Of a stretch of DNA of 32,000 nt, positions 7,881-23,445 are shown one piece after another (position 1 is the stretch's first letter; the number at the start of each line of letters is the position of its first letter). The notes under the pieces are model-generated. The model made no database searches. It had not been told where the DNA came from and worked only from the letters and a program-made list of their open reading frames with translations. The translations under genes were made by a program, and so were the position numbers. The stretch is from Thermomonas fusca DSM 15424 (lineage in GTDB: Bacteria; Pseudomonadota; Gammaproteobacteria; Xanthomonadales; Xanthomonadaceae). The stretch is taken from positions 1 to 32,000 of the forward strand of contig NZ_AUIV01000002.1 of assembly GCF_000423885.1 (NCBI RefSeq), read 5' to 3'.

Positions 7881-7913
7881 TCATTTGGCACGTCGGAGCA
7901 AACGGCCCACGTC

Positions 7914-9864: not shown

Positions 9865-10062
9865 ATTGGAGCCGAATGGCCGTGACGACAAAGACGGCAC
9901 GGGGCGCAGCCCGCAAAGCCCGGCGGTGCAAGGCACCGACACGCCCAGGAGCGTCGCAGCATCATTCTGCCATATGCGCAACAAATATATTTGGCGCACA
10001 AAACATCATTTTCATGCAAAAATATCGACCATCATGCACAACATAGCCAACTGAGGTGAATC

Positions 10063-10728: not shown

Positions 10729-10820
10729 TGGACGCAACGAGGCATCTCAAGTGATACGCCAACGCCGCCTGCGCATAAGCGTAGGCAGCGGCGTTCTCGT
10801 TCGGCTGTTGGCCTTGAACA

Positions 10821-10852
10821 CCGGGCGCGGCCACTGCCGCGCCCGGATTTTT
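10821..10852 (+). terminator. Rho-independent terminator of 10063..10728
   Basis: Perfect 11-bp stem CCGGGCGCGGC / GCCGCGCCCGG with loop CACT, followed by ATTTTT. Confidence 0.75.
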
Positions 10853-10902
10853 GCGCCCACCGCGCCCAGGACGGAGCGGCCTGGGCGCGGTGCTGATCGC
10901 GG

Positions 10903-11082
10903 CTATTCCTTCGTCTCGATGATCCACCACACGGCCCGCGCCAAGGCGCAGCCCGTGACGGGGTGAATGTCGGTGAGGTCGGCGTATGCCGTCCAGCCCG
11001 AGGGCGGACGATAGCCGCACACGTCGCCTTCGCCGTGCCAGCGGCGGGCGCGTACCGTGCCGGGGGCGTAGATCGCCGCCAT
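10903..11082 (-). CDS. Possible small protein (59 aa) downstream of the ParB-like gene
   Basis: ORF MAAIYAPGTVRARRWHGEGDVCGYRPPSGW... Its composition is less Arg/Ala-biased than the surrounding spurious frames. There is no convincing RBS. Confidence 0.3.
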   Translation of the reverse strand: MAAIYAPGTVRARRWHGEGDVCGYRPPSGWTAYADLTDIHPVTGCALARAVWWIIETKE

Positions 11083-11170
11083 GCGCGGGCGGCTGGTGGT
11101 GGTGTGGGTGGCGGTTCTCCTTCTAGCGAAGCGCCTCGGTCGGGGCCGGGGCGCTTCCCTTCGGCGCGGG

Positions 11171-13246
11171 TCAAGCGGCCAGCGCCTCGGCGGGTTCATC
11201 CGCCATTGCTTCTGCATCCTCCGGGGCGTCCTGCTCCGGGCCTTCTTCCTGCGCGCCTTGCTGCGTTGCCTGCTGCGGACCTGCGACCTTGAAGATGGCG
11301 GGCATCCACCCCGTGCCATCCGCCAGCCGTTCGGCTTCGCTGGCAATGTCGGCCTTCTTGAGCTTCGCCAGCCGGTTGACCTGCTCGGGCGCGTACTCGC
11401 CCACGGCATCCAGAATCACGGCCTTGGAAACGTGCTTGAAGTAGCCTTCTGCGGTTGGCTTCCACCATGCGGCCATATCGAGGCCCACGGCCTGCGCCAG
11501 TTCCTCGCCGCGTTGGTGCGTCGTGGCGCGGGGCGTCACCACGTCCACCGTTGCGGCAACGCATACCGCCAGCAGGCGTACCAGCTCGTCTTGCGGCTTC
11601 GCCAGCAGCACGGCGAACAGTTCGGCGCTGTCCTCCGGCAAGCCTTCACCGGCCACCTGTTGCAGTTCGCGCAGCGCCACGGCGGCAAGCGATTGCGGCC
11701 AGTCCGGGGCCATGCCTTCCAGTCGGTCTTGCACCGTGAGGCGCACGCCCAGCGGCAGATTGTGGCCGTAATGGCTCCCCTGCAAGACAGTCTGCACCAT
11801 GCCATGCACCACGGCAGCCAGCGCCGCTTGCGGATGCCGGGCCACTTCGATTTGCAGCGCGGCGGTGCGATGGGCGCTCAACCGTTGCGCCAGCCGGTCG
11901 GACATGGCTGCGGTCTTGGGCTGACTGTCGTCGTCTCCGTCCTCGCCTTCGTCATCGTTATCGGCATCCTCGCCGCCGGAACCTTGCCGCAGCCGTTCCA
12001 GCGTGCGCAATGCCTTGGCCTCAGCCTCGCGCATCAGGCCGCGATGAATGACGGCCTCGCCATTACGGTCGATGGTGACGATGGCACCGGCTGCAGCCTT
12101 CACGTTCGAGCCGTAGCCTTGCAAACTATCTTCCAGCGCCTGCAACTGCTCGCCCAGGGCTTCGCCTTCCTCCTGCAAGGCGTCGGCCTTATCCTCGTCG
12201 TCGGCATCCATCGCCGCATCCACGGCTTCACCGATGGCCCGCATCTTCTCCTGCAGCCGCTCGATGCGCTGCGCCTCGCGCTTGGACGGCTCGCGCCGTT
12301 CCCTCGGTGCGCGCTGGAAGACGTGCAGGTCGGCATGGGTCACGCCCGGCGTGGCATCCACCCAGGCCCAGCCCTCGGCCTTCACCTCGGCGGCAATGCC
12401 CGCCAGCCGGTCTTGTGCCAGCTTGTCCAGCAGCGCGGAATCGATCAGATACACGCCCGCGTCACCTTCCGCGAACAGGTCACGGCGCACGCCACCGCCT
12501 GCGGCTTCGTAGGTATCCAGTCCCACGAATCGCACCAGCGGGTGCCGGTTCGCGTCAATCTCGCGCTCGGTGAGGCGTTCGCGCAAGTTGGACGGGTGCC
12601 GCTGCCAAGTCGGCGCATCGTAGAACGCGCTTTCCTGCGCGGCGTGGTCGTCGGTGATGGCAAGGGCCATCAATTGATCGAGTGTGACGGCATCGGCGCG
12701 ATAGTCGGCCATCAGGCGCGGCGAGACGTTCGCCAGCTTCAAGCGGCGCTGCACCACCAGCGGCGTCACGCTGAAATCCGCCGCAATGTCCTCGATGGGC
12801 CGACCTTCGGCCACCAGCGCGGCGAACGCCTCGAACTGGTCTGCCGCGTGCATGGCTTCGCGCTGCACGTTCTCGGTGAGGCTGGCGGTACGGGCGGTGC
12901 CATCGGCTACCAGCAGGCAAGGCACCTCCCAATCTTTGGCGATGCGGTGCTTCTTTGCCAGTAGCTTGAGGGCTGCGAAGCGACGGCCACCTGCCACGAC
13001 TTCGTAATGCTCGCCATCGGCGGCGGCGATTACGATCAGGTTTTGCAGCAAGCCCACGCGCTGAATGGACGCGGTCAGTTCGGGGATGGACATGCGCGGG
13101 GTCTTGCGCACGTTGCGCCCCGTGGGGCGCAGCACCAGCCGCGACAGGGGAACCAGAATCAGGTTCTTGCTCGGGTCGGCGGCTTCCAGCGGAATAGCGG
13201 CGGCGGTGTTGATGGCGCGGGCTTCGGTTTGGGTAATGGCGTTCAT
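11171..13246 (-). CDS. ParB/Spo0J-family N-terminal domain protein with long acidic C-terminal extension (691 aa)
   Basis: Has LVLRPTGRNVRKT...IQRVGLLQNLIV...YEVVAGGRRFAALKLL (ParB box) and TENVQRE. GGAG lies upstream of ATG 13246. Confidence 0.85.
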   Translation of the reverse strand: MNAITQTEARAINTAAAIPLEAADPSKNLILVPLSRLVLRPTGRNVRKTPRMSIPELTASIQRVGLLQNLIVIAAADGEHYEVVAGGRRFAALKLLAKKHRIAKDWEVPCLLVADGTARTASLTENVQREAMHAADQFEAFAALVAEGRPIEDIAADFSVTPLVVQRRLKLANVSPRLMADYRADAVTLDQLMALAITDDHAAQESAFYDAPTWQRHPSNLRERLTEREIDANRHPLVRFVGLDTYEAAGGGVRRDLFAEGDAGVYLIDSALLDKLAQDRLAGIAAEVKAEGWAWVDATPGVTHADLHVFQRAPRERREPSKREAQRIERLQEKMRAIGEAVDAAMDADDEDKADALQEEGEALGEQLQALEDSLQGYGSNVKAAAGAIVTIDRNGEAVIHRGLMREAEAKALRTLERLRQGSGGEDADNDDEGEDGDDDSQPKTAAMSDRLAQRLSAHRTAALQIEVARHPQAALAAVVHGMVQTVLQGSHYGHNLPLGVRLTVQDRLEGMAPDWPQSLAAVALRELQQVAGEGLPEDSAELFAVLLAKPQDELVRLLAVCVAATVDVVTPRATTHQRGEELAQAVGLDMAAWWKPTAEGYFKHVSKAVILDAVGEYAPEQVNRLAKLKKADIASEAERLADGTGWMPAIFKVAGPQQATQQGAQEEGPEQDAPEDAEAMADEPAEALAA

Positions 13247-13310
13247 GGTGTATCTCCAATCGAATGAAACAAGGAATGGAGGGGAAACCGCCCCTCCGGC
13301 GGGGGACGGA

Positions 13311-14138
13311 TCAGGCTTTGAGGGCGCGCATGCCATCGGCCAGCAGCCACAGGGCGCGGTTCAGACGGATGTTTTGGTCAATGCCCTGCACCGGGCGCGT
13401 GCTCTGCCTGCGGCCATTCGCGGCGCGGCCATGCAATCCGCCCTTGGTCAAGTTTTCCTGCGTGCGGTTGAACACGCTCCACAGGTCGGGGCGACGGTCG
13501 TCGAACCGGCGCGGCATCAGGATTTGCGATTCGGTGATGGGCGCAGGCTTGTCCGGGTCGTCGTACTTGAGGGACAGCGCGGCGCGGGCGAACACTTCGG
13601 ATTCGCCATCGTCCAGCGTGATGCCGCGCATCAGGTCGCGCGATGCCTTCACCTGCTCGAAGCCGCCCAACACTTGATAAGCGCCTTCGATGACGTGTCC
13701 GGCCACGTCGCCTTTGTGGGGCACGCGCACATCGGCCACGGTGTCGCCGCAGACAAGGCCATTGCTGCAAACGAAACGGAACATCCCGGCCAGCATCTGA
13801 TAGCTGCTCGTCCCGTCATGGGAATTCAGGAGGACGATTTCATTGGCTTCCGCGCCGTTGATCTGGCTGGCGTGGCGCAGGCGCAGCATGTGTTTCGTGT
13901 GCTCGCGCTTGCCTTCATCGCGCACGCGGGTCTGCGTCACCATGAAAGGCTGGAAGCCTTCTTTGCGCAGTTCGGTCAGCACGGCGGCGGTGGGGATGTA
14001 GCTGTACCGCTCGGAACGGCTCTCATGTGGGGCGTCCGCGAAGATGGACGGGGCCACGCGGCGGATTTGGTCATCGGACAGCGGGGAGTCGCTGCGCAGC
14101 GACGGGGAGCGGGAAGCGAAACGGGATGCGAGTTGCAT
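13311..14138 (-). CDS. DUF932 domain protein
   Basis: Has YSYIPTAAVLTELRKEGFQPF.V.Q...., LLNSHDGTSSYQMLAGMFRFVCSNGLV, and a GGAGA RBS before ATG 14138. Confidence 0.85.
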   Translation of the reverse strand: MQLASRFASRSPSLRSDSPLSDDQIRRVAPSIFADAPHESRSERYSYIPTAAVLTELRKEGFQPFMVTQTRVRDEGKREHTKHMLRLRHASQINGAEANEIVLLNSHDGTSSYQMLAGMFRFVCSNGLVCGDTVADVRVPHKGDVAGHVIEGAYQVLGGFEQVKASRDLMRGITLDDGESEVFARAALSLKYDDPDKPAPITESQILMPRRFDDRRPDLWSVFNRTQENLTKGGLHGRAANGRRQSTRPVQGIDQNIRLNRALWLLADGMRALKA

Positions 14139-14329
14139 GATCTTTCTCCTGACAAAAAAGGGGGTTGCTGTTCACACCGCACACCGGATTCCAAGATTCG
14201 GAGCCCAGCCTTTCGGCTGTTCGGTGCGGTCGGCACGAAGAACCCGGTTGGCCTCGTTGCCACCGTCTTTCCTGAGTTCATCGCCCGCGACGGTCAGGAG
14301 CGCGCGGACGGGGGCCGTCAAGGAAACAA

Positions 14330-14867
14330 GCGCAGGGTGGGTGCGGCCCGCAGGCGCAGCCGAGGACACGGCCCTGCGCGCCTTGACGGCACATGGCCGC
14401 GGGCTACAGTCGCGAGCAAGGTGATGGAGTCAGGGGAGACGGCTGAACAGGCAACGGCCATCCTGTGCGCCGACCGCATGGCAAGCGAAGCGCGCAGGCC
14501 CGGATCTGGAAGCCGGGCCGGAGACGTCAGCCGAGCGGAGCGAGGGAACGATGGAAGCCCGACATGGGGCGAGACGCCGCAGGTGGCTCGATGCGCAGCA
14601 CGACAGCGCGACCGGCCATGTTTCTTGGCCGGGGACGCCCAGACTGCAATCCTCAACGAACACCACGCCCAGGACGGCCCTCATGCGCAAAGCATCGAGG
14701 AGCGGCCTCTGCTGCTGGAACTGCGATTGGTATATGGCCGATCCGGCGCATCCGGTTCGGCGGTCTTTGAGGGGCGCCAAGCCTGCGCGGCGGGGATAGG
14801 CCGCAGGGCTTTCCCCTGGAGGCAAGCGAAGCGCGGAGCGCCCCGTCAGGGGCGCGAAGGCTTCAGG
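14330..14867 (-). repeat. Structured leader element copy B (upstream of DUF932). 14330-14640 is homologous to copies C/D and 14741-14867 to copy A.
   Basis: Shared blocks ..CCTTGACGGC.., ..GCAAGCG.AGCGCGCAGGCC..CCGGAG.CGTCAGC.., ..GGCTCGATGCG.AG.ACGACAGCGCG..GGACGCCC, with hairpins of differing sequence at equivalent positions. Confidence 0.55.
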
Positions 14868-15141
14868 CCGAGTCGTCAGGACGCAGGGTGGATTCCGAAA
14901 CCGGCATCCACGGCGAGCACGAGTTCAGCAGATAGCGCGCGCCGCGCGCGTACAGCCCCGAAGGTTCGGCAGGTCGGTAGAACCCGGTAACGCGGCGCCG
15001 GAACTGCAAGCCGGCATCGTTCGTGTAAATCACCGCGTCGCCGATCTTGAAGCGCAAAGGCTGGCCGTTCTCCGGCGCGAATGGCTTGAGTTCATCGTGC
15101 TGCGCTGTGATTTCAATGATGTAGTCGTGATGGCTGCTCAT
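14863..15141 (-). CDS. Hypothetical ICE backbone protein (92 aa)
   Basis: Starts MSSHHDYIIEITAQHDELKPF.. with AGGAAA upstream of ATG 15141. Non-biased composition. Confidence 0.55.
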   Translation of the reverse strand: MSSHHDYIIEITAQHDELKPFAPENGQPLRFKIGDAVIYTNDAGLQFRRRVTGFYRPAEPSGLYARGARYLLNSCSPWMPVSESTLRPDDSA

Positions 15142-15206
15142 GGCATTGATTTCCTGTAACGGTTGAGAAAGTGCAAGGAGCGCCTTGCGGCGCTCCAAGG
15201 GCCGGG

Positions 15207-15557
15207 TCAAACGACGACCCGCCCAGCCAGGCGCGCATCGCGCGCATAGGCGCTCAAGCGCTTCTCGGCGCCGAACGACAGGTCACGCTCAATCGGCAGG
15301 CCCAGCCCACCGCGCACAGTCGCCAACTCGCCCAGGCTGACCCAGCCAAGTTCCTGCATCCCCAAGCCCAGGTCGCATAAGCCGAAGGCGTGATCGTGGT
15401 CGTCGGGATCAATCTCGGTCAGCAGCCAGGTCGCGCCGGCGTCCGGCGTGAAAAGCTTGACTACGGGCTCCGGATCGAAGTCCGGGTTTTGCAAGGATTC
15501 GCGGCCATTGGCCAGCAGCATCACGCGCTGCTCATCGGTGATGAGTGCGTTGTTCAT
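15207..15557 (-). CDS. DUF2958 domain protein (paralogue 2)
   Basis: Has VVKLFTPDAGATWLLTEIDPDD.DHAFGLCDLGLGMQELGWVSLGEL, and GGAG 7 nt upstream of the ATG. Confidence 0.85.
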   Translation of the reverse strand: MNNALITDEQRVMLLANGRESLQNPDFDPEPVVKLFTPDAGATWLLTEIDPDDHDHAFGLCDLGLGMQELGWVSLGELATVRGGLGLPIERDLSFGAEKRLSAYARDARLAGRVVV

Positions 15558-15579
15558 GGTGAACTCCTGAAGATTGCCG

Positions 15580-15792
15580 GGCGGAATTGCCCGTCACCTC
15601 CGGGTCACGGCGCAGCGCAAGCGGTCAGGGGTCGAAGACGGCCGGAGGCCGCCAGCGTGCTTGCACGCGCAGCCCTTGACGGCGAGAACGCCGTGGCACG
15701 ATGAAGGGAACAGCAAGACCGCCCCACCCCACCACCCACGCAGACCTGCCTTCGGCAAGTGCGCAGCACGCGCAGGCCCGCGAGGGCCGGAG
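15580..15792 (-). repeat. Structured leader element copy C (upstream of DUF2958 paralogue 2)
   Basis: About 200 nt collinear with 16366-16568, running from GGCGGAATTGCC to GGCCGGAG. Confidence 0.55.
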
Positions 15793-15811
15793 TTGCACCG
15801 CTGGGCGGAGC

Positions 15812-15834
15812 AAAAAAAGGGGGCCGAAGCCCCC
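15812..15834 (-). terminator. Rho-independent terminator of radC
   Basis: On the minus strand: GGGGGC-TTCG-GCCCCC followed by TTTTTTT, starting 4 nt after the radC stop. Confidence 0.8.
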
Positions 15835-15838
15835 GTGG

Positions 15839-16345
15839 TCAGAGCAGGCCACATTCGGCGAATGACGTAGTGACTGCGCCACCCACGACGATGTGATCCA
15901 GCGTGCGCACGTCCACCAGCGCCAGGGCCTCCTTGAGGCGCTGGGTCAGTACCCTGTCGGCCTGGCTCGGCTCGGGACTCCCGCTCGGATGATTGTGCGA
16001 AAAGACCACCGCTGCCGCGTTGAGCCGCAGGGCCTCCTTCACCACCTCGCGCGGATACACCGATGCCTGGTCGATGGTGCCGCGGAACAGTTCCACATAC
16101 TCGATCAGCCGATGCTGGCTGTCGAGGAACAGCGCCGCGAAGACTTCGTGCCCGAAGCTGGCCAGCTTGGTGCGCAGGTAGTCCTTGACCAGCGCCGGCG
16201 AAGTGAACAGCGTTCCGCGTGGGTTCTTCAGATCGATGACCTGGCGTGCCGCCGCCAGAATCTGGTCCGCCGACGCCTGCAGGTAACGGCCCTGCGCGTC
16301 ACGCACCAGCAGCGAAGAATCGAGAGACAGAGAAAGTTGCGACAT
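15839..16345 (-). CDS. radC: RadC-like JAB/MPN domain protein
   Basis: Has EVFAALFLDSQHRLI....LFRGT...SVYPREVVKEAL..NAAAVVFSHNHPSG.PEPS.AD, a JAMM motif. Confidence 0.9.
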   Translation of the reverse strand: MSQLSLSLDSSLLVRDAQGRYLQASADQILAAARQVIDLKNPRGTLFTSPALVKDYLRTKLASFGHEVFAALFLDSQHRLIEYVELFRGTIDQASVYPREVVKEALRLNAAAVVFSHNHPSGSPEPSQADRVLTQRLKEALALVDVRTLDHIVVGGAVTTSFAECGLL

Positions 16346-16365
16346 GATCGTGCTCCGGTTGCTCA

Positions 16366-16653
16366 GGCGGAATTGCCTGGAACCGGCCGCAACACGGCGC
16401 AGCGCAAGCCGTCACAGGGTCGAAGACGGCTACGGCCGCAAGCGCCAAAGGCGCGCAGCCCTTGACGGCGAGAACGCCGTGATACGGTGAAGGGAACAGC
16501 AAGACCGCCCTCCCCGCCCACGCTGACTGACTGGGCAAGCGGAGCGCGCAGGCCTGACCAGGCCGGAGGCGTCAGCGATGGACGCCCGTAGGGGCGAGAT
16601 GCCAAGAGCGGCTCGATGCGAAGTACGACAGCGCGTCCCGTTCGGGGACGCCC
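16366..16653 (-). repeat. Structured leader element copy D (upstream of radC)
   Basis: 16366-16568 is collinear with copy C, and 16543-16653 is collinear with copy B (14481-14640). Confidence 0.55.
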
Positions 16654-16741
16654 TGAAATCGGGTATCTTTAGAGCCAACAGATTCCCGAATTGGGTCTCG
16701 CCCGGTCTGATAGTCAGAACACCGCAATTGCGAGGAAAGGC

Positions 16742-17884
16742 ATGCCAGCGCTATATCAACTTGCCCTGCTCGGCACCCCAACGGCAGCTCAAATTTCCGA
16801 ACTTGAGGAAGTTGTCGGAAAGGCTGTCGGCATGTTCAATTTGCGGTTGGGGCATGAGATTGGATGGGAGGTTTGTCCCGATGAATTCAATCCAGACCAA
16901 CAGCGATCGTCTGCGGCGGCATTTTTCGGAGGTCATGAGCCTCCCCTTGCGAATGTGGCAAGGCTCCTGGCGCGAGGCATCCCGCTGCTCCCAGTCGCCT
17001 CTGACATCAATCGAGTCGGCGCAGAAATCCCCGCCTTGCTGCAACCGCTCAACTGCTTGGCATACACCGCTGGCGGGGCGCAACGTGTCGCAACTGCTTT
17101 GCTGGAATGTGCAGGGCTCCTTCCTCGACAGCGCCGGGTGTTCGTAAGCTATCGGCGGGGCGAGGCTAGGGAAGCTGCCTTGCAGTTGTTCGATGCGCTG
17201 TCTGCTCGGCTATTCGATGTGTTTCTCGATACACATGGCATTCCACCTGCTGAAGATTTTCAGACCATGCTATGGCATCGGCTTTGTGACTCGGATGTCC
17301 TGCTGATGCTCGACACCCCAGGATACTTTGAAAGCCGTTGGACGAGTGCGGAATTCGGCCGCGCTCTGGCCAAAGGCATCAGCGTCTTGCGGGTGGGGTG
17401 GCCGGATACAACGCCTTCTGCGCGTACGGCGACGGCCAGTCGGGCGGAACTGCTACCCGAAGAAGTCGATCCGGCGACCGGACGCATCGCAGACGGCGCG
17501 GTGGATCGCATCTGTCTTCAGTTGGAGGAAGTTCGCAGCCAGAGCCATGCGGTTCGCTCTGTCAATCTCGTGAGCAATCTGCGCAACGCTATTCAAACAA
17601 TCGGCGGCCAAGTTGTCGGAGTGGGCGCCAACAGAGCTGTTTATGTCCAACTGCCGGATGGGCGGAATGTAGTTGTTTATCCAACAGTCGGAGTTCCCAC
17701 GTCAACTACATTGCACGATGCGTCTACGAATTCACCGGAACAATCCGTTGCCGTTGTCTACGATCACGTAGGCCTGCATCCTAGGTGGCTGGGCCATCTG
17801 GACTGGCTGGGTCAGCACATTCACTCCGCCAGGTGGGTTAAAGCCAGCGAGGCGGGTTGGCAATTCGCTGACTGGGCGGCGTAG
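16742..17884 (+). CDS. TIR-domain protein (380 aa) with unassigned N- and C-terminal regions
   Basis: The central RVFVSYRRGEAREAALQLFDAL....VFLD....., DVLLMLDTPGYFESRWTSAEFGRALAKGISVLRV gives the TIR strand-helix pattern with an S-x-W-x-x-x-E glutamate. GAGGAAAGG lies before ATG 16742. Confidence 0.8.
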   Translation: MPALYQLALLGTPTAAQISELEEVVGKAVGMFNLRLGHEIGWEVCPDEFNPDQQRSSAAAFFGGHEPPLANVARLLARGIPLLPVASDINRVGAEIPALLQPLNCLAYTAGGAQRVATALLECAGLLPRQRRVFVSYRRGEAREAALQLFDALSARLFDVFLDTHGIPPAEDFQTMLWHRLCDSDVLLMLDTPGYFESRWTSAEFGRALAKGISVLRVGWPDTTPSARTATASRAELLPEEVDPATGRIADGAVDRICLQLEEVRSQSHAVRSVNLVSNLRNAIQTIGGQVVGVGANRAVYVQLPDGRNVVVYPTVGVPTSTTLHDASTNSPEQSVAVVYDHVGLHPRWLGHLDWLGQHIHSARWVKASEAGWQFADWAA

Positions 17885-17886
17885 CC

Positions 17887-18474
17887 ATGAGCGCAATATT
17901 CCTCTCGGCCAGCGTGCCACTTGTTGGACGTGGCACCTACCACGAAACTGCCAATCCATTTCTCATCCAATGTGCGGTGAGAGAACTGGTCATAGCAGTC
18001 ATTCGCCAGCACAAGATCGTCTGGGGTGGGCATCCTGCGATTACCCCGATGATTTGGAGCATATGTGAAGACTTGGGCGTCGATTACTCGCAGTCTGTCG
18101 TCTTGTATCAGAGCACGTTCTTTGCAGATGTGTTCCCTGAAGAGAACAAGCATTTCCAGAATGTAGTTTTCACTGACGCTGTCCCCAATGACAAGGCGGC
18201 GAGCTTGCTTGTCATGCGTGAAAAGATGCTCTCGCGTGCGGACCTAAGCGCTGCTGTGTTTATTGGTGGAATGGATGGGGTAGAAACCGAGCATGAGCTT
18301 TTCAGGCGATTCCATCCTGCAGCCAAGGTGCTCCCGGTGTCCTCGCCGGGCGGAGCGGCGTTGAATCTAGCCAAGGACCATGGCTATTTCACCGGTGAAG
18401 CGCTCGTTGATGTGGACTTCGCTCAGCTCTTCCATACGCACCTGGCGGTGCCCTTGGCTGGCAAACCAAGTTAA
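17887..18474 (+). CDS. SLOG/LOG-superfamily Rossmannoid protein (TIR-associated SLOG, TPALS-like)
   Basis: Has IFLSASVP.., VWGGHPAITP and VFIGGMDGVETEHELF (the GGxxGxxxE signature). The ATG is 2 nt after the upstream stop. Confidence 0.65.
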   Translation: MSAIFLSASVPLVGRGTYHETANPFLIQCAVRELVIAVIRQHKIVWGGHPAITPMIWSICEDLGVDYSQSVVLYQSTFFADVFPEENKHFQNVVFTDAVPNDKAASLLVMREKMLSRADLSAAVFIGGMDGVETEHELFRRFHPAAKVLPVSSPGGAALNLAKDHGYFTGEALVDVDFAQLFHTHLAVPLAGKPS

Positions 18475-18520
18475 TTCATTTCTCGGCGCTGGCCTCTAGA
18501 ACATCAACCGAGGATTGTTC

Positions 18521-19006
18521 ATGCCACGGAAAGTCTTCTACAGCTTTCACTATCAGCGCGACAGTTGGCGCGCCTCCAAGATACGCAATATTGGCGTTGT
18601 AGAGGGCAACCCGTCAGCGACCGATAACAAATGGGAAGAGGTGAAGCGAGGCGGAGACGCCGCGATCAAGCGCTGGATCGACGACCAATTGCAAGGGCGG
18701 ACTTGCACCATTGTTTTGATTGGCACGGAAACGGCAAATCGCCCCTGGATTCGATATGAGATCGAGCAATCATGGAACAGCGGAAAGGGGCTCTTGGGGA
18801 TACGTATCCACAAACTGCTGGACCACAACCAGCAACCATCGGTGGCGGGGGAAAATCCATTCGATTCATTTACCTTGAATGACGGTAGAAAACTATCCAC
18901 CGTCGCCCGCGTCTACGATCCGCCAGGGACCAGCAGTAGCGCGGTCTACACCTCTATCAGCGACAACTTGTCGAACTGGATCGAAGCAGCGATCGCCGCG
19001 CGCTAG
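18521..19006 (+). CDS. TIR-like (DUF1863/ThsB-type) protein (161 aa)
   Basis: Has KVFYSFHYQRDSWRASKIRN.., CTIVLIGTETANRPWIRYEIEQSW..GKGLLGIRI. GAGGA lies 6 nt upstream of ATG 18521. Confidence 0.75.
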   Translation: MPRKVFYSFHYQRDSWRASKIRNIGVVEGNPSATDNKWEEVKRGGDAAIKRWIDDQLQGRTCTIVLIGTETANRPWIRYEIEQSWNSGKGLLGIRIHKLLDHNQQPSVAGENPFDSFTLNDGRKLSTVARVYDPPGTSSSAVYTSISDNLSNWIEAAIAAR

Positions 19007-19009
19007 AAG

Positions 19010-19684
19010 TCAGAGCACTTCGTCAAACAACGATCCGGTACTCATGGGGTACCCATAGAGTTCCGAGATTTGCGACTGGAATTGTGTCTGTCCACCGTAG
19101 CTGGGGTGCCTCACGCAAATCACCGGCACAGCATCTGTGATGCGATGAGCTGCAGCGGCGGCATCGTTGCCGATGGCGACGATGCGAGAAGGCTTCAGCA
19201 GGACAATGAGTTGCTGGAGCAGTTCTTCGCCTGCTCGCCTTTCTTGCGCGTTGTGCTGGCGGTTAGTAAACGGATCTCCGGATTCATGCGGATGAAGGGG
19301 AAAGACGTTCCAAAGGAAGATGCGAGCATCAATGTGTTCCAGCATGCCCCATATGACCGCCGCAGTTCGCTCGGCTACAGCGCTTCCTATCGTGGGCCGC
19401 TCTGCGACCAGATCGAGATTCCAGCGCTTAGCGTGCTGGCCCATGTGCACGTCATCAGTCAGGGCTAAACCAGTACGGCGCCCTCCGCGATATCCGAGAT
19501 CCCTTCCGATCCAGATGGCATCTACAGACTCCTCGGTTGCACGACGCAGCATGGCGGAGAGTGCTGCAGCGCGGCGCCGTGGCGCATCGCGCCGATCATG
19601 GACTTCACATCGATCCGAATACGGATTGAAGCAGTCTTCGAATTGCAGCGAAGCAACTGCCTCAACGAATGGATGGATCTTCAT
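19010..19684 (-). CDS. Uracil-DNA-glycosylase-superfamily protein
   Basis: Motif A-like IWIGRDLGYRGGRRTGLALTDD, then NVFPLHPH and motif B-like VRHPSYGG. Start overlaps the upstream stop (ATGA). Confidence 0.7.
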   Translation of the reverse strand: MKIHPFVEAVASLQFEDCFNPYSDRCEVHDRRDAPRRRAAALSAMLRRATEESVDAIWIGRDLGYRGGRRTGLALTDDVHMGQHAKRWNLDLVAERPTIGSAVAERTAAVIWGMLEHIDARIFLWNVFPLHPHESGDPFTNRQHNAQERRAGEELLQQLIVLLKPSRIVAIGNDAAAAAHRITDAVPVICVRHPSYGGQTQFQSQISELYGYPMSTGSLFDEVL

Positions 19685-20817
19685 TTTTCGGACTCAAGTG
19701 ACATGTATTTGATGGTGCGTTGTTCTCGGTTTCCAATGATCCAGCCGCCTTGATTTGCCTTGAGCTGTCGGAAAACAGCATACCCTTCCAGGATAGCTTT
19801 TTCCCAGAGCTTCAGCGGGCATTTCTCTACTTCATAACCGCTCACAAACTCGCCGATGGTTTTGAGAATTCCGAGTGAGACTTTCTCCTGATTCTCGAAG
19901 AAATTCAGTTCTTTGGCTCTTGAAAAAATCCAGGCAGCAACTCCTTCCTCAACGACGATGGCTCGGCCACTGTCCTGCTCTTCATCGAATTTCGGATTGC
20001 TCTTCCGCTTGTGCCTGATCAATGCCCGCATCACGGGCGACCAGTGAAGGATCGCCGCGTTAGCAAAATGGAAAACGTCATGGAACCGGTAGCCATCGCG
20101 GTCGGCAATGTTGTCAGTCAAAGGGTCTCCAATGAACACTCCATTCCATTGGAGATAGCTTTTGCCACTACCTCGTTGGTTGACGCGGATTCTGAATTCT
20201 CTGGGCAACTGTTCCTCGATTCCAAATTTACTATCGAAATCAAGGTCAAGCAGATCATCTGCTTGTGGCTCCAAGAACGCACCGCGAGCTTTACGAAGGT
20301 TGGAGCGAGCCACTTCCGAAAATGCTAGCTCGGCCGCATGGATTGCATCCAAGTAAGCCCGTGCGAACGCGACCAATTCAGTGCGCGCAGGGGTACTTCC
20401 CAATAGCGCTGCGGCTGACTGCCCCAAACGTACAAGAGTAGTGTCTAACGATGCAGGCGCAGCAATAGGCACTGCGATATAGGCCATTGCACCTTCGGCG
20501 ATATCACTTGCAGCACCAACATTCTTGAAATTTCCGTGATTGGCCGCTTCCCCGAAGATCTCATCGAGAGGAACATTCAAGCGCCTGCAGATTGCAGCCA
20601 GGTACCAAAGGGTGTCGCCAAATTCTTCTTCCGCAGCTTTCTTAAAGCCAGGGTATGCCGATTTGTCACGAACATGTTTTTTAACCGTGGCCATTATTCC
20701 GCCAACTTCTCCGTACAGTCCTTGGAGAACCGGATTGAAGTCGCTCGGATTGAGCACGTCCGTGGCTGCAATTTCTGCAGCGTAATCCGAAAGCAAGAGG
20801 GAGCCTTCCTTTTTCAT
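19681..20817 (-). CDS. MazG-like nucleoside triphosphate pyrophosphohydrolase domain protein with an about 190-aa C-terminal extension
   Basis: N-terminal GLYGEVGGI...AAEEEFGDTLWYLAAICRRLNVPLDEI is the EExxD metal-binding helix pair of all-alpha NTP-PPases. The C-terminal half (DGYRFHDVFHF.., IVVEEG) is unassigned. Confidence 0.7.
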   Translation of the reverse strand: MKKEGSLLLSDYAAEIAATDVLNPSDFNPVLQGLYGEVGGIMATVKKHVRDKSAYPGFKKAAEEEFGDTLWYLAAICRRLNVPLDEIFGEAANHGNFKNVGAASDIAEGAMAYIAVPIAAPASLDTTLVRLGQSAAALLGSTPARTELVAFARAYLDAIHAAELAFSEVARSNLRKARGAFLEPQADDLLDLDFDSKFGIEEQLPREFRIRVNQRGSGKSYLQWNGVFIGDPLTDNIADRDGYRFHDVFHFANAAILHWSPVMRALIRHKRKSNPKFDEEQDSGRAIVVEEGVAAWIFSRAKELNFFENQEKVSLGILKTIGEFVSGYEVEKCPLKLWEKAILEGYAVFRQLKANQGGWIIGNREQRTIKYMSLESEK

Positions 20818-20820
20818 CGG

Positions 20821-21447
20821 TCACCTGCGAAGCGTCAGCCATTCAAAGGGGGCGCCTTGGTAGCCGCTCACGGCCAAGCTGCGTATCCAATGCTCAAGAT
20901 TCGCGACCAATTGCGCATCGTCAAAGGTGGTGAGACCTATTCCAGTTTTACATAGAGGACGTCCCTGCTGATCATGCAACTCATTGGGAAACTCAGGCCC
21001 CTCCCCCCCAAAATATACGAAATCGTTGCTGATTAAAACCCTGTTGACGCCCGTATCACGAGCAACGTGATCAGGGTTCAGAGAGCCATCAGGGCGGGAG
21101 TGGAACGAATCGCGCTGTTGCCAAGCAGCCCCAGCCGCAACTCTGAAATAAATGTTGTCCCCGCAACTTTGCTTCCGACTGCCATTGCGGTACGGCTTCT
21201 TGGATTCAAAACGCGGGTCTCGGCCGTACTCGTCAAATGTCATTGCCTCGGTGACCCGCATCGCATAGACCAGGTGCCCACCGCGTCGAACACTTTGATC
21301 ATTGCTTCCGCTGCCAACCACCCAATCACCAATGTTGGCGCTTCTTCGGATGCTGGGTTTGCAAGTCGCGAGCGTGCAGTAGCTGTAAAAGGGGTTGGGC
21401 GCAAAACCACTGTCGTACCGCACGACATAGGAGTGAATACGTGCCAT
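20821..21447 (-). CDS. Nmad2-like (nucleotide-modification-associated domain) protein
   Basis: The N-terminal HSYVVRYDSGFAPNPF..YCTLATCKPSIRR pattern matches my memory of the Nmad2 family. This assignment is tentative. Confidence 0.5.
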   Translation of the reverse strand: MARIHSYVVRYDSGFAPNPFYSYCTLATCKPSIRRSANIGDWVVGSGSNDQSVRRGGHLVYAMRVTEAMTFDEYGRDPRFESKKPYRNGSRKQSCGDNIYFRVAAGAAWQQRDSFHSRPDGSLNPDHVARDTGVNRVLISNDFVYFGGEGPEFPNELHDQQGRPLCKTGIGLTTFDDAQLVANLEHWIRSLAVSGYQGAPFEWLTLRR

Positions 21448-21914
21448 CAGCAGGGATGCCGCTTGAGTGGAACCGGGTCGCAGGCACCGCCGTCAGGCTT
21501 TTCCCACGAATCCTTTCCGTTGATCGCGTCGATGATTGAATCACCGTTCCACCCAACCAGTGCGTCCGCATGTTCTTTCAGCGCATCCGGCAGGTCGCAT
21601 TCCTTTTCGCCATGCTCCCAAACACCAACAATGCGCTTGCCCTGTTTGGCCGCGTATTCGATTTCCCAGTTCACCCAATCGCTGTTCTTGGTTTGGGGTG
21701 AGACATAGCAAATGAACACCCCAGCCCAATTGATGGCAGGCGCAAGGATCTGCGTCTTGATGTAGTGCTCATCAGTGGCATTGTTGAACTTTCCTGTGTG
21801 GATGGAGGAATCCCGGACTTCCACCCCCTTCGGCGCCAACAAATCCTTGAGCTTCTGGAGCCCATGATCGTCCTTATGGACATGGCTGATGAATACGTTC
21901 CTTTTGTCTGCCAC
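21447..21914 (-). CDS. Stand-alone TIR-domain protein (155 aa)
   Basis: Has NVFISHVHKDD..L.KLKDLL, VFICYVSPQTKNSDWVNWEIEYAAKQGKRIVGVW (S-x-W-x-x-x-E). GTG start with GGAGG 6 nt upstream. Confidence 0.8.
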   Translation of the reverse strand: MADKRNVFISHVHKDDHGLQKLKDLLAPKGVEVRDSSIHTGKFNNATDEHYIKTQILAPAINWAGVFICYVSPQTKNSDWVNWEIEYAAKQGKRIVGVWEHGEKECDLPDALKEHADALVGWNGDSIIDAINGKDSWEKPDGGACDPVPLKRHPC

Positions 21915-22580: not shown

Positions 22581-23105
22581 TCATTCAACGAGAGCTTCCA
22601 GCTCGTCGGAAGCTGAGCGCGATAACCGCCGCCCCTCCTTGACCACGTTGACCTGCAAGGCAACGCACGCCACCTCCAGAACGTCCATGGCCAGCGAGTA
22701 GCTACCCTTTGCCTGCAGCCAGGCCAGCACATCCGCCAAGTGCCAGATCGACGCGCTGCCCTCATGCACCGGCGCTGGGAAGCTGCCCGGATGGGCCAGC
22801 ATCAGCTTGCGCATGTTCTGCCGCGACACGCCCACGATGTCGGCCACGTCGGTCAGCCCAACCAGATCCGGTGCGACTTCGATCAGCCTGGCCGCTGGCA
22901 CCGCGCTCCGCACGTCGGCCAACGCGCTGCGCACAGCCGCGTCCGCACTGTCCGCCTCTCGGGTGAACTCCAGCGCGAGCCGCCCCGGCTGCCCGATGCC
23001 GACCAGGGCATCGTCGCACCCGGCCTCGCCCAGACGCTCGACCAGTGCATCCGGGTCACGGTCATCGTCGGTGAGTTGGTATTTCAGGGTGAAGGTGTAT
23101 TCCAT
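22581..23105 (-). CDS. HTH DNA-binding protein, antitoxin-like (174 aa)
   Basis: MEYTFTLKYQL.. N-terminal alpha/beta domain plus LTDVADIVGVSRQNMRKLMLAHPGSFPAPV....SIWHLADVLAWL HTH. Begins 4 nt after the upstream gene. Confidence 0.6.
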   Translation of the reverse strand: MEYTFTLKYQLTDDDRDPDALVERLGEAGCDDALVGIGQPGRLALEFTREADSADAAVRSALADVRSAVPAARLIEVAPDLVGLTDVADIVGVSRQNMRKLMLAHPGSFPAPVHEGSASIWHLADVLAWLQAKGSYSLAMDVLEVACVALQVNVVKEGRRLSRSASDELEALVE

Positions 23106-23109
23106 CGTG

Positions 23110-23385
23110 CTACTCCTCGGCATCGTCGGCTGCCTCCTGCTGCTTGCGGTGCGTCGTGCAGTTGTCCACGACTCGCCGCAAGGCACGCGCATGGTTGCCA
23201 GGGTTCTTCGGCGTACTCCACACGCTGGTGATACAGAACTCGCCGCAGCGACACTCCGCATCGTTGTACGGACAATAAATCCGCCCCCAGGCGTGGCTGC
23301 CACCGACTTCCACACGCCAGCCCTGCCCTTCGGCGTGCCTGAGTGCTTCCTCGACTTCTTTCTTCGGATGAGAGGACCGGGCCAT
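23110..23385 (-). CDS. Small Cys/His-rich protein (91 aa), possible toxin partner
   Basis: Starts MARSSHPKKEVEEALRHAEGQGWRV...GSHAWGRIYCP..DAECRCGEFCITSVWSTPKNPGNHA. GGAG lies 7 nt before ATG 23385. Confidence 0.55.
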   Translation of the reverse strand: MARSSHPKKEVEEALRHAEGQGWRVEVGGSHAWGRIYCPYNDAECRCGEFCITSVWSTPKNPGNHARALRRVVDNCTTHRKQQEAADDAEE

Positions 23386-23412
23386 CAACAGTCTCCAGTA
23401 TGAGAATACTTA

Positions 23413-23438
23413 CCAAGGTTGTCAAGTGACAACCTTGG
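23413..23438. promoter_or_regulatory. Perfect 12-bp-arm palindrome CCAAGGTTGTCA-AG-TGACAACCTTGG between the int stop and the small-protein operon
   Basis: Read directly. It starts 8 nt downstream of the int stop and 28 nt upstream of ATG 23385, so it could be an int terminator hairpin, an operator, or both. Confidence 0.5.
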
Positions 23439-23445
23439 TCCTGCT

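What the first reader, a model, noticed from the sequence alone, without database searches (positions are those of the whole stretch)
16742..19006. TIR / SLOG / TIR-like three-gene operon with no recognisable Thoeris effector
Three co-directional genes are tightly packed in a lower-GC insert: stop at 17884, next ATG at 17887, then a 46-nt gap with GAGGA and ATG 18521. Gene 1 (380 aa) has a central TIR domain with the S-x-W-x-x-x-E glutamate context (ESRWTSAEFG). That domain is flanked by an unassigned N-terminal region of about 125 aa and an unassigned C-terminal region of about 120 aa. Gene 2 (195 aa) shows the two glycine loops of the SLOG/LOG Rossmannoid superfamily (VWGGHPAITP, VFIGGMDGVETE). 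This is the fold that senses TIR-made ADPR isomers in type I Thoeris ThsA. It resembles the computationally defined TIR/PNP-associated SLOG (TPALS) clade. Gene 3 (161 aa) is a DUF1863/ThsB-type TIR-like protein (KVFYSFHY.., RPWIRYEIEQS). So the operon has two putative signal generators and one putative nucleotide sensor. It has none of the effector modules of the described Thoeris types (SIR2, TM-Macro, caspase-like protease). Three explanations are possible: the SLOG protein is itself enzymatic (a LOG-type N-glycosidase), the unassigned C-terminal domain of gene 1 is the effector, or the effector acts in trans. I am not aware of an experimentally characterised system with this composition.
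Basis: partly seen in the sequence, partly recalled or inferred. Interest (0 to 1): 0.88.

Follow-up and report, generated by a model that had tools for sequence, protein, structure and literature searches.

The report
Reduced type III Thoeris anti-phage operon
The three genes are real, but they are a two-TIR version of the already named and tested "type III Thoeris" phage-defence system, carried on a mobile element; the locus is ordinary, though how this effector-less system works is still unknown.

Summary
In detail: three tightly packed co-directional genes at 16742-19006 in a low-GC island. They encode a 380-aa TIR protein, a 195-aa SLOG protein and a 161-aa ThsB-type TIR protein.

The novelty claim fails.
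- NCBIfam equivalog models name gene 1 "Thoeris type III ThcB4" (474.6 bits, cutoff 220) and gene 2 "Thoeris type III ThcA" (261 bits, cutoff 110).
- The SLOG is Pfam LD_cluster3, not TPALS.
- Gene 1's TIR domain is 68% identical to TIR 4 of the validated P. aeruginosa L0872 system. Gene 3 is 48% identical to its TIR 2.
- The window lacks TIR 1- and TIR 3-type genes, so it is a reduced member.

Signalling in type III was still described as uncharacterised in December 2025.

- ThcB4 lies directly upstream of ThcA in 76 of 77 loci.
- The two are fused into one protein in several lineages.
- Extra small TIR genes vary in number and position.

My inferred model is that ThcB4+ThcA form a split TIR-SLOG sensor/effector, triggered by a signal from ThsB-type TIRs.

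The adjacent TIR-Nmad2-MazG-UDG operon is often but not always linked. The same window also holds a complete type II Thoeris.

The parts
16742..17884 (+). thcB4-like gene. It encodes a 380-aa three-domain protein: an unassigned N-terminal alpha/beta domain (~1-125), a TIR domain (~132-236, with W200/E204), a long helix (251-286) and an unassigned C-terminal alpha/beta domain (~290-369).
   Evidence: - NCBIfam NF058526 'Thoeris type III ThcB4' equivalog: 474.6 bits against a cutoff of 220.
- PADLOC ThsB model PDLC00434 over the full length: E=2.4e-70.
- Pfam TIR_2.
- 68% identity to L0872 TIR 4.
- AF2 model pLDDT 76.6; only the TIR part matches PDB entries (SARM1, L6, RPS4).
17887..18474 (+). 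thcA (also called thsD). It encodes a 195-aa standalone SLOG-fold protein. Its start codon lies 2 nt after the thcB4 stop.
   Evidence: - NCBIfam NF058525 'Thoeris type III ThcA': 261 bits against a cutoff of 110.
- Pfam PF18180 LD_cluster3: E=1.5e-78.
- AF2 model pLDDT 86. The best PDB fold matches are the EcThsA SLOG, DprA, TRPM MHR, LOG-like TT1887 and the MoCo carrier.
18521..19006 (+). Small ThsB-type TIR gene (161 aa). It is the 'TIR 2'-like member of type III Thoeris and the presumed phage sensor and signal generator.
   Evidence: - Pfam ThsB_TIR: E=1.2e-28.
- PADLOC ThsB PDLC00433: E=3.5e-72.
- 48% identity to L0872 TIR 2 and 41% to B. cereus MSX-D12 type I ThsB.
- E80 is conserved in 54 of 54 relatives.
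16346..16741 (+). Upstream intergenic region between radC (minus strand) and thcB4. It presumably holds the promoter and the RBS GAGGAAAGG.
   Evidence: The sequence was read. No sigma-70 consensus match was found there, so the promoter is not located.
19010..21914 (-). Convergent four-gene neighbour operon. It is frequently linked to thcB4-thcA, but membership in the system is unproven.
- ThsB-type TIR, 155 aa: 21447-21914
- Nmad2, 208 aa: 20821-21447
- MazG + MazG_C, 378 aa: 19681-20817
- UDG-superfamily protein, 224 aa: 19010-19684
   Evidence: - Pfam hits. None of Nmad2, MazG or UDG matches a PADLOC model.
- The module is adjacent to ThcB4-ThcA in 34 of 54 fully flanked loci, in several different orientations.
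- It is adjacent in 4 plasmids, against about 0.007 expected by chance.
- Its stop codon lies 3 nt from the gene 3 stop.

Best explanation
The trio is a reduced, two-TIR member of the type III Thoeris anti-phage system, carried as cargo on an integrative element. I put this identity at about 0.9.

How it most likely works
1. Inferred: the small ThsB-type TIR (gene 3) detects phage infection and converts NAD+ into an ADP-ribose-derived signal. A glycocyclic ADPR is the likeliest candidate, because gene 3 and its relatives are 41-67% identical to the type I ThsB of B. cereus MSX-D12.
2. Inferred: the standalone SLOG protein ThcA binds that signal, as the SLOG domain of type I ThsA does.
3. Supported here: ThcA works as one physical unit with ThcB4. 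The two genes are invariably adjacent, are translationally coupled, and are fused into a single TIR-SLOG polypeptide in several lineages. I put this at about 0.8.
4. Inferred, about 0.4: the TIR domain of ThcB4 is the output. It would be a NAD+-consuming effector switched on by ligand-bound ThcA. The pair would then be a split analogue of SIR2-SLOG ThsA, and of the sensor-domain-plus-TIR effectors of CBASS and Pycsar. The outcome would be growth arrest or abortive infection.

The unassigned N- and C-terminal domains of ThcB4 would serve assembly or docking.
For: Identity
- NCBIfam equivalog hits lie well above their cutoffs for ThcB4 and ThcA.
- Gene 1's TIR is 68% identical to validated L0872 TIR 4, and gene 3 is 48% identical to TIR 2.
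- The literature defines type III as multiple TIR proteins plus a distinct, non-STALD SLOG.
- The same island occurs in P. aeruginosa-sized genomes.

ThcB4 and ThcA as one unit
- ThcB4 lies directly upstream of ThcA in 76 of 77 loci. The single exception is a ThcB4 gene split by an insertion.
- The stop-to-start spacing is -4 to +10 nt in 78 loci.
- Natural fusions exist: P0389, P0451 and P0438 match the ThcB4 profile at HHalign probability 99.4-99.7%, followed by a C-terminal ThcA-like SLOG. Two were confirmed as single ORFs carrying Pfam TIR_2 + LD_cluster3.

Small TIRs as interchangeable sensors
- All 54 fully flanked loci carry at least one additional TIR gene.
- The number, type and position of these genes vary.
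- This resembles the use of multiple ThsB proteins in other Thoeris systems (mentioned).
- Gene 3 is 41% identical to B. cereus type I ThsB. The TIR 3-like genes in L032-L034 are 67% identical to it.

Catalytic competence
- W200 and E204 are invariant in ThcB4 and are retained in the fusions.
- The ThcB4 TIR matches the SARM1 and TIR-1 NADase TIRs best by fold.

SLOG fold
- The ThcA model matches the EcThsA SLOG domain best.
Against: - The primary paper was not available, so I could not check which genes were cloned or mutated.
- Published summaries call the SLOG protein the 'effector', not ThcB4.
- Nothing here distinguishes a NADase effector TIR from a signal-producing TIR. Both keep the catalytic glutamate.
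- In 7 of 54 loci the only TIR besides ThcB4 is the one attached to Nmad2. Either that TIR serves as the sensor or ThcB4 itself senses.
- ThcA is unusually conserved, with many invariant polar residues. This would also fit an enzyme.
- The fold matches for ThcA are marginal (best E=1.6e-3, TM at most 0.59).
Confidence: 0.6

Rival explanations
1. All the TIR proteins, including ThcB4, are sensors and signal generators, and ThcA is itself the effector. Once it binds the TIR product it would act as a LOG-type enzyme that cleaves N-glycosidic bonds of nucleotides or ADPR derivatives. This would deplete or poison the nucleotide pool.
For: - Published summaries label the type III SLOG protein the effector (ThsD).
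- SLOG clades include N-glycosidases, and some are predicted to cut 1'-ribosyl N-glycosidic bonds.
- ThcA is extremely conserved (mean column identity 71-75%) with many invariant polar residues, including H49, E85, E86, R111, R117 and E135.
- The GGMDGVETE loop resembles the LOG PGGxGTxxE motif (my own knowledge of the motif).
- LOG-like TT1887 is among the fold hits.
- A nucleotide-hydrolase Thoeris effector has a precedent in type VIII ThsI.
Against: - No Pfam LOG-family hit appeared at E<=0.1. Only LD_cluster3 was reported.
- The best fold matches are the non-catalytic ThsA SLOG and DprA.
- This model does not explain why one particular 380-aa TIR protein is invariably coupled and sometimes fused to ThcA while the other TIRs vary.
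Confidence: 0.3
2. The trio has no effector of its own. Output would come from genes in trans. One candidate is the convergent TIR-Nmad2-MazG-UDG operon, acting through nucleotide modification or depletion. The other is the TM-Macro ThsA of the type II Thoeris 8 kb upstream.
For: - The Nmad2+TIR module is adjacent to ThcB4-ThcA in 34 of 54 fully flanked loci, across 38-99% identity.
- It appears in at least five arrangements: convergent, co-directional, divergent, upstream and split.
- In L073, L074 and L076, TIR155 and Nmad2 follow ThcA co-directionally.
- Four of 29 ThcA plasmids also carry Nmad2, always adjacent, against about 0.007 expected by chance.
- A complete type II Thoeris lies in the same window.
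Against: - The linkage is facultative. All 11 Methylophilus loci, and many others, have ThcB4-ThcA-TIR without Nmad2.
- 25 of 29 ThcA plasmids lack Nmad2, and 14 of 18 Nmad2 plasmids lack ThcA.
- The validated L0872 system is catalogued simply as four TIRs plus SLOG.
- The type II system has its own ThsB and a Macro sensor that is specific for His-ADPR in characterised members.
- The alternative partners of Nmad2 (thymidylate-synthase-like, dNMP kinase, 5-hmdU DNA kinase-like) point to an independent base-modification pathway.
Confidence: 0.08
3. It is not an immune system. The SLOG protein would be a DprA-like DNA- or nucleotide-handling protein, and the TIR-like proteins would be deoxyribosyltransferase-like enzymes of a mobile-element nucleotide or DNA modification pathway.
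For: - DprA gives the highest TM-scores for ThcA (0.54-0.59).
- The neighbouring genes are annotated as nucleotide-modification associated.
- One small TIR family gives a weak Nuc_deoxyrib_tr hit.
Against: - Type III Thoeris is reported as experimentally validated anti-phage defence, and a phage-encoded inhibitor is known.
- Equivalog-level matches tie this locus to that system.
- The loci sit among defence genes such as Mrr, AbiEii-like ATPase, patatin and type II Thoeris.
Confidence: 0.02

Closest known systems
Type III Thoeris of Pseudomonas aeruginosa L0872 (ThcA/ThsD + ThcB1-4; van den Berg et al. 2024, Cell Host Microbe 32:1427, as cited)
   Same: - The same ThcA-type LD_cluster3 SLOG and the same 380-aa ThcB4-type TIR protein, both at equivalog level.
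- The TIR 4 domain is 68% identical.
- A TIR 2-like small TIR lies directly downstream (48% identity).
- No fused effector domain.
- It occurs on mobile elements of Pseudomonadota, including P. aeruginosa.
   Different: - The window has two TIR genes in the operon, where the validated system has four. TIR 1-type and TIR 3-type genes are absent.
- It abuts a TIR-Nmad2-MazG-UDG operon.
- I could not read the primary paper, so the exact cloned architecture and any mutant data are unknown to me.
Type I Thoeris (ThsA SIR2-SLOG + ThsB TIR; signal 3'cADPR)
   Same: - It has a ThsB-family TIR. Gene 3 is 41% identical to B. cereus MSX-D12 ThsB.
- It has a SLOG-fold sensor. The best fold hit of ThcA is the EcThsA SLOG.
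- Both use one SLOG component with a variable number of TIR genes.
   Different: - There is no SIR2 domain.
- The SLOG belongs to a different clade (LD_cluster3 rather than STALD).
- The SLOG is a separate 195-aa protein, coupled to a large TIR protein instead of being fused to SIR2.
- PADLOC ThsA models do not match it.
Sensor-domain plus TIR NADase effectors of other signalling systems (TIR-STING and TIR-SAVED in CBASS, TIR effectors of Pycsar). This comparison rests on my own knowledge; their existence as NAD+-depleting TIR effectors is stated.
   Same: The proposed logic is the same: a nucleotide-binding sensor module controls a TIR domain that destroys NAD+. The natural ThcB4-ThcA fusions give the same one-chain sensor-plus-TIR layout.
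   Different: - The sensor here is a SLOG, not STING, SAVED or a cNMP-binding domain.
- The signal would come from other TIRs, not from a CD-NTase or cyclase.
- NADase activity of ThcB4 is untested.
TPALS clade of SLOG domains
   Same: Both are SLOG superfamily members found in TIR contexts.
   Different: At E<=0.1, Pfam reports only LD_cluster3 (E=1.5e-78) for gene 2 and no TPALS family.
LOG / PpnN-type nucleotide N-glycosidases and DprA (other SLOG superfamily members)
   Same: They share the Rossmannoid SLOG fold and two glycine-rich loops. DprA and LOG-like TT1887 are among the fold hits.
   Different: - No sequence-profile membership was detected.
- Fold E-values are marginal.
- No evidence for catalysis or DNA binding was obtained here.

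Membership tests
Type III Thoeris | A ThcA-type standalone SLOG protein (NCBIfam NF058525 equivalog, cutoff 110 bits; Pfam LD_cluster3) | tested here: met
   - 261 bits, covering profile positions 1-184 of 184.
- PF18180 E=1.5e-78.
- The SLOG fold is supported by the AF2 model and Foldseek.
Type III Thoeris | A ThcB4-type ~380-aa TIR protein (NCBIfam NF058526 equivalog, cutoff 220 bits) encoded immediately upstream of thcA | tested here: met
   - 474.6 bits, covering profile positions 1-375 of 375.
- A 2-nt gap to thcA.
- 68% identity to the validated L0872 TIR 4 domain.
Type III Thoeris | Multiple TIR-domain proteins in the system (four in the validated L0872 system) | tested here: met
   - The operon has two TIR genes: gene 1, and gene 3 (48% identical to L0872 TIR 2).
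- A third TIR gene lies in the convergent operon.
- TIR 1-type and TIR 3-type genes are absent from the window, so this is a reduced complement.
Type III Thoeris | Confers resistance to phage, and is inhibited by phage protein TadIII-1 | not testable with these tools
   This needs cloning and phage challenge. The existence of TadIII-1 is reported.
Type I Thoeris | A ThsA effector with SIR2 fused to a STALD-type SLOG | tested here: not met
   - No SIR2 domain is found in any of the three proteins.
- Gene 2 matches no PADLOC ThsA model.
- The SLOG is LD_cluster3.
Type I Thoeris | A ThsB TIR protein | tested here: met
   - Gene 3: PF08937 E=1.2e-28 and PADLOC ThsB E=3.5e-72.
- 41% identity to B. 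cereus MSX-D12 ThsB.
Type II / type IV Thoeris | A TM-Macro (type II) or caspase-like (type IV) effector within the operon | tested here: not met
   Neither domain occurs in genes 1-3. A TM-Macro ThsA does exist in the window, but in a separate, complete type II system at 7018-8750.
TPALS SLOG clade | A match to the TPALS Pfam family | tested here: not met
   Only LD_cluster3 is reported for gene 2 at E<=0.1.
LOG-type N-glycosidase | LOG-family profile membership, with the catalytic PGGxGTxxE motif | tested here: inconclusive
   - No LOG-family Pfam hit was reported.
- The loop reads IGGMDGVETE, one residue longer than the LOG motif as I recall it, with E133 and E135 conserved.
- Activity is not testable here.

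The most novel reading that the evidence does not exclude
ThcB4+ThcA is a split (and in some lineages fused) TIR-SLOG sensor/effector module that can be plugged into different TIR-based signal sources. The recurrently adjacent but undescribed TIR-Nmad2-(MazG-UDG, or thymidylate-synthase-like/kinase) operon would be functionally coupled to it. The seven-gene island at 16.7-21.9 kb would then be one composite system that links TIR signalling to nucleotide or DNA base modification or depletion.
Probability: 0.15. Interest if true: 0.65.

Novelty: new member of a known kind. Interest (0 to 1): 0.3.

Why it matters
As a locus it matters little. Current NCBI models annotate it automatically, and near-identical copies circulate on integrative elements in many Pseudomonadota, including P. 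aeruginosa.

The wider question does matter. Type III Thoeris is the one early-named Thoeris type whose signal and killing mechanism are still unknown, and it has no obvious effector domain.

The comparative results obtained here narrow that question:
- The ThcB4-ThcA pair is invariant.
- Natural ThcB4-ThcA fusions exist.
- The small TIRs are interchangeable and ThsB-like.

Together these give a directly testable hypothesis: a SLOG-gated TIR NADase. The facultative linkage to Nmad2 nucleotide-modification operons is also undescribed, as far as the libraries searched here show.

Tried and rejected
1. TPALS assignment of gene 2. Rejected: Pfam gives LD_cluster3 only.
2. A novel, uncharacterised system. 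Rejected on NCBIfam names, the literature and identity to the L0872 TIRs.
3. Identifying the N- and C-terminal domains of ThcB4.
   - Whole-model Foldseek gave only TIR hits plus uninformative low-TM Rossmann-like matches.
   - HHalign of the N and C sub-alignments against TIR, SLOG, small-TIR profiles and each other gave nothing, with probability at most 3.5%.
   - A sequence search of the PDB gave nothing.
4. Solved structures of ThcA by sequence. None found.
5. Whether the 'Nmad2-only' plasmids hide divergent ThcB4/ThcA pairs.
   - True for Beijerinckia.
   - False for Mesorhizobium and Sinorhizobium, where only generic TIR similarity was found.
6. Nmad2 in phage genomes. No match.
7. Retrieving the primary paper (van den Berg 2024) and Burroughs et al. 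2015. Neither is held. Searches for ThcA, ThcB and ThsD found no mechanistic study.
8. Sigma-70 promoter and terminator scans of the island. Nothing above shuffled expectation, and no promoter upstream of gene 1.
9. L046 as a ThcB4-ThcA pair without other TIRs. Rejected: Pfam finds two flanking ThsB_TIR genes.
Full report
OBSERVATION

The three ORFs exist exactly as described.
- Gene 1 runs 16742-17884 (380 aa). An RBS, GAGGAAAGG, lies upstream, and an alternative TTG start lies at 16691.
- Gene 2 runs 17887-18474 (195 aa). Its start is 2 nt after the gene 1 TAG.
- Gene 3 runs 18521-19006 (161 aa). It follows a 46-nt spacer containing GAGGA.

The genes lie in a low-GC stretch, 0.52-0.60 against 0.65-0.71 in the flanks.

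Pfam gives these assignments:
- TIR_2 for gene 1, aa 133-219, E=2.5e-12.
- LD_cluster3 'SLOG cluster3' for gene 2, E=1.5e-78.
- ThsB_TIR for gene 3, E=1.2e-28.

The quoted motifs are present and conserved:
- W200 and E204 of gene 1 are invariant in 24 homologues.
- The two glycine loops of gene 2 are largely invariant.
- E80 of gene 3 is conserved in 54 of 54 relatives.

WHAT IT IS

NCBIfam (June 2026) has equivalog models for this system.
- Gene 1 scores 474.6 bits against 'Thoeris type III anti-phage system protein ThcB4' (cutoff 220).
- Gene 2 scores 261 bits against 'Thoeris type III ... ThcA' (cutoff 110).
- Both matches cover the full length of the model.

PADLOC 2.0 recognises genes 1 and 3 as ThsB-family proteins over their full length. 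It has no model for gene 2.

The literature agrees with these names.
- Yirmiya et al. [quoted passage not shown] They cite van den Berg et al. 2024 and rename the effector ThsD.
- Rousset et al. mention it as well.
- A 2026 review says its SLOG differs from the STALD-type SLOG of type I.
- A phage inhibitor, TadIII-1, has been reported.

Table S1 of Yirmiya et al. gives the four TIR domains of the validated P. aeruginosa L0872 system. BLASTP against the window shows:
- Gene 1 is 68% identical to TIR 4 (E=1.5e-57).
- Gene 3 is 48% identical to TIR 2 (E=7e-30), 37% to TIR 3, and 41% to the type I ThsB of B. cereus MSX-D12.
- The window has no TIR 1-type or TIR 3-type gene.

The trio is therefore a reduced, two-TIR member of a named and experimentally validated family. 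The TPALS suggestion is not supported.

COMPARATIVE ANATOMY

ThcA is a large and very conserved family.
- 2,430 clusters at 90% identity match it. The top 120 are 72-96% identical across Burkholderiales, Pseudomonas, Enterobacterales, Aeromonas and Methylophilus.
- An exhaustive profile search finds 1,205 representatives at 50% identity.

A scan of species-representative genomes found 253 loci, of which I analysed 80, plus E. coli AW1.7.
- ThcB4 lies directly upstream of ThcA in 76 of 77 loci with enough flank. The one exception is a ThcB4 gene split by an insertion.
- The stop-to-start spacing is -4 to +10 nt.
- A small TIR gene lies directly downstream in only 50 of 77 loci.
- All 54 fully flanked loci carry at least one further TIR gene, once L046 is checked with Pfam.

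The additional TIR genes vary in type, number and position.
- L053 and L055 have the order TIR1 > ThcB4 > ThcA > TIR2 > TIR3, which contains all four L0872 TIR types.
- L042, L045 and L058 lack TIR 1.
- L070 and L072 have TIR 1 and TIR 3.
- The window type, ThcB4 > ThcA > TIR2-like, is the commonest in this sample. It also occurs without other linked modules in 11 Methylophilus genomes, at 50-58%, 72% and 59-66% identity for the three proteins.

The three genes therefore co-occur elsewhere in conserved order, but the true invariant is the ThcB4-ThcA pair.

ROSETTA-STONE FUSIONS

Among the ThcA profile hits, nearly all are 190-220-aa standalone proteins. Several long proteins, however, carry the SLOG at the C-terminus.
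- P0389 is 600 aa, P0451 is 572 aa and P0438 is 640 aa.
- Their N-terminal ~370 residues align with the whole ThcB4 profile, covering the N domain, the TIR and the C domain. HHalign probability is 99.4-99.7%, with E values of 1.5e-21 to 1.5e-26.
- They keep the W-x-x-x-E motif.
- P0400 (735 aa) adds an N-terminal hexapeptide-repeat domain.
- Two fusions were confirmed as single ORFs in their contigs, with Pfam TIR_2 + LD_cluster3. Each has another TIR-domain gene upstream.

Invariant adjacency, translational coupling and these fusions together are good evidence that ThcB4 and ThcA act as one physical unit.

STRUCTURES

The ThcA model has pLDDT 86 and pTM 0.86. It is a Rossmannoid alpha/beta protein.
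- Its best PDB matches are the SLOG part of E. coli ThsA (8wc0), DprA (TM up to 0.59), TRPM N-terminal domains, LOG-like TT1887 and a MoCo carrier protein.
- All of these are SLOG-superfamily members, although the E-values are marginal, at 1.6e-3 or worse.

The ThcB4 model has pLDDT 77.
- It shows an N-terminal alpha/beta domain (1-125), the TIR (132-236), a long helix (251-286) and a C-terminal alpha/beta domain (290-369).
- Only the TIR is recognised, matching SARM1, C. elegans TIR-1, L6 and RPS4.
- Profile-profile tests of the flanking domains found nothing.
- No solved structure is detectable by sequence.

MECHANISM

What is shown
- The locus is a type III Thoeris member.
- The ThcB4-ThcA pair is obligate and sometimes fused.
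- Catalytic-type glutamates are conserved in all the TIRs.
- ThcA has a SLOG fold.

What is inferred
- The variable ThsB-type TIRs are the infection sensors and signal generators. Gene 3 is 41% identical to a validated type I ThsB, and the TIR 3-like genes are up to 67% identical to it.
- ThcA binds the signal.
- The TIR of ThcB4 is the NAD+-consuming output. The pair would then be a split analogue of SIR2-SLOG ThsA, and of the sensor-plus-TIR effectors of CBASS and Pycsar.

My confidence is about 0.9 for identity, 0.8 for the pair acting as a unit, and 0.4 for ThcB4 being the effector.

The main rival, at about 0.3, is that ThcA is an enzymatic LOG-like effector and all the TIRs are sensors. 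This fits the published label 'SLOG effector', the unusual conservation of ThcA and the known glycosidase activity of some SLOG clades. It does not explain the special status of ThcB4.

NEIGHBOURS AND THE 'EFFECTOR IN TRANS' IDEA

Immediately downstream, and convergent, lies an operon at 19010-21914 on the minus strand. The two stop codons are 3 nt apart. It encodes:
- a ThsB-type TIR (155 aa);
- Nmad2;
- MazG + MazG_C;
- a UDG-superfamily protein.

None of the last three matches a PADLOC model.

This module, or at least its TIR+Nmad2 core, is adjacent to ThcB4-ThcA in 34 of 54 fully flanked loci. This holds across all identity bins and in several arrangements:
- convergent, as in the window;
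- co-directional downstream of ThcA in L073, L074 and L076, and also in L071;
- upstream in L051;
- divergent in a Beijerinckia plasmid whose ThcB4/ThcA pair is only 41-43% identical;
- split in a Sulfitobacter plasmid.

In Enterobacterales, MazG and UDG are replaced by a 5-hmdU-DNA-kinase-like protein, a dNMP kinase and a thymidylate-synthase-like protein. This suggests a nucleotide or DNA base-modification pathway.

In the plasmid collection, ThcA occurs in 29 records and Nmad2 in 18.
- Both occur in 4 records, always adjacent, against about 0.007 expected by chance.
- However, 25 of 29 ThcA records lack Nmad2, and 14 of 18 Nmad2 records lack ThcA.
- The large-TIR neighbours in two Nmad2-only plasmids are not ThcB4/ThcA.

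The linkage is therefore strongly non-random but facultative. It could reflect functional coupling or preferred co-carriage in TIR-rich islands.

A second recurrent neighbour, in 15 of 54 loci, is a SLOG(cluster2)-patatin phospholipase with extra TIR genes. Yirmiya et al. list 'SLOG Patatin' as a predicted Thoeris effector that gave no defence when tested in E. coli.

Finally, the window itself contains a complete type II Thoeris at 7018-8750, made of an HTH regulator, a ThsB and a TM-Macro ThsA. Its ThsB is 65% identical to the validated B. amyloliquefaciens Y2 TIR. That system has its own TIR, and nothing indicates cross-talk with the trio.

CONTEXT

The island sits on an integrative element.
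- Backbone genes are two DUF2958 genes, a ParB_N protein, DUF932 and RadC. A tyrosine integrase lies at 23446-24702.
- Chromosomal guaB, folD and a ThiF-family gene follow.
- The same backbone and the same seven-gene island occur in P. aeruginosa-sized genomes.
- The proteins are 'MULTISPECIES' RefSeq entries.

VERDICT

The system is, however, already named, modelled and experimentally validated as type III Thoeris, and this locus is a reduced member of it.

Interest is low to moderate. It rests on the still-open mechanism of type III, and on the comparative clues found here: the ThcB4-ThcA fusions and the Nmad2 linkage.

The main limitation is that the primary paper was not available. I cannot exclude that some of these points are already published.

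Noticed in passing
window 7018-8750 (+): A second low-GC island (GC ~0.50-0.53) carries a complete type II Thoeris.
- HTH_3 regulator: 7018-7308.
- ThsB: 7317-7880 (PADLOC PDLC00421, E=5.7e-80). It is 65% identical to the validated B. amyloliquefaciens Y2 type II TIR.
- TM-Macro ThsA: 7914-8750 (PF20016, E=2.9e-63; PDLC00413, E=1.3e-127).

The window therefore holds five TIR-domain genes in three cargo islands.
   Followed up: partly
window 19010-21914 (-); also L074, L071, L073, L076, L059, L060, L082, L083, L086-L088: A TIR(ThsB-type)-Nmad2-MazG/MazG_C-UDG operon, with no PADLOC model for the last three genes.
- The TIR+Nmad2 core recurs with alternative partners: a thymidylate-synthase-like protein, a dNMP or nucleotide kinase, a 5-hmdU-DNA-kinase-like protein and an O-methyltransferase.
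- It lies in TIR-rich islands.
- It is adjacent to ThcB4-ThcA far more often than chance: 34 of 54 loci, and 4 plasmids against ~0.007 expected. The linkage is not obligatory.
- It is absent from the phage collection.
- Its function is unknown. It may be an undescribed TIR-linked nucleotide-modification or depletion system.
   Followed up: partly
P0389, P0451, P0438, P0400, P0476 (metagenomic proteins); L089 4616-6418, L090 4627-6345: Natural single-chain fusions of a full-length ThcB4-like protein to a ThcA-like SLOG.
- In one lineage a hexapeptide-repeat (LbH) domain is fused in addition (P0400). In another it is encoded just upstream (L089).
- Each fusion gene has another large TIR_2 gene upstream.
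   Followed up: yes
L054 3337-8570; L081 (E. coli AW1.7) 2568-9242; L012-L015, L018-L021, L031, L036, L048, L051, L060, L065, L078, L080: In 15 of 54 loci, ThcB4-ThcA lies directly downstream of a 538-aa SLOG(cluster2)-patatin phospholipase (annotated 'CBASS cGAMP-activated phospholipase') plus one to three extra TIR genes.
- E. coli AW1.7 has five TIR genes and two SLOG proteins in one array.
- It is unclear whether this is one system or two.
   Followed up: partly
window 19004-19012: The stop codons of gene 3 (+) and the UDG-like gene (-) are only 3 nt apart, and no terminator-like hairpin lies between them. Transcripts of the two convergent operons probably overlap.
   Followed up: no
window 17887-18474 and alignments A1/A3: ThcA is unusually conserved for a defence protein. 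Mean column identity is 71-75% across several proteobacterial classes, and about 70 columns are invariant in 30 sequences. This suggests catalysis or multiple constrained interfaces.
   Followed up: no
window 5326-16345 and 22581-24702: Integrative-element backbone.
- RovC-like regulator: 5326-6099.
- Two DUF2958 paralogues: 6424-6819 and 15207-15557.
- ParB_N protein: 11171-13336.
- DUF932: 13311-14138.
- RadC: 15839-16345.
- Tyrosine integrase: 23446-24702.

Chromosomal guaB, folD, DUF2272 and ThiF/rhodanese genes follow from ~26.6 kb. No tRNA gene is present in the window.
   Followed up: partly
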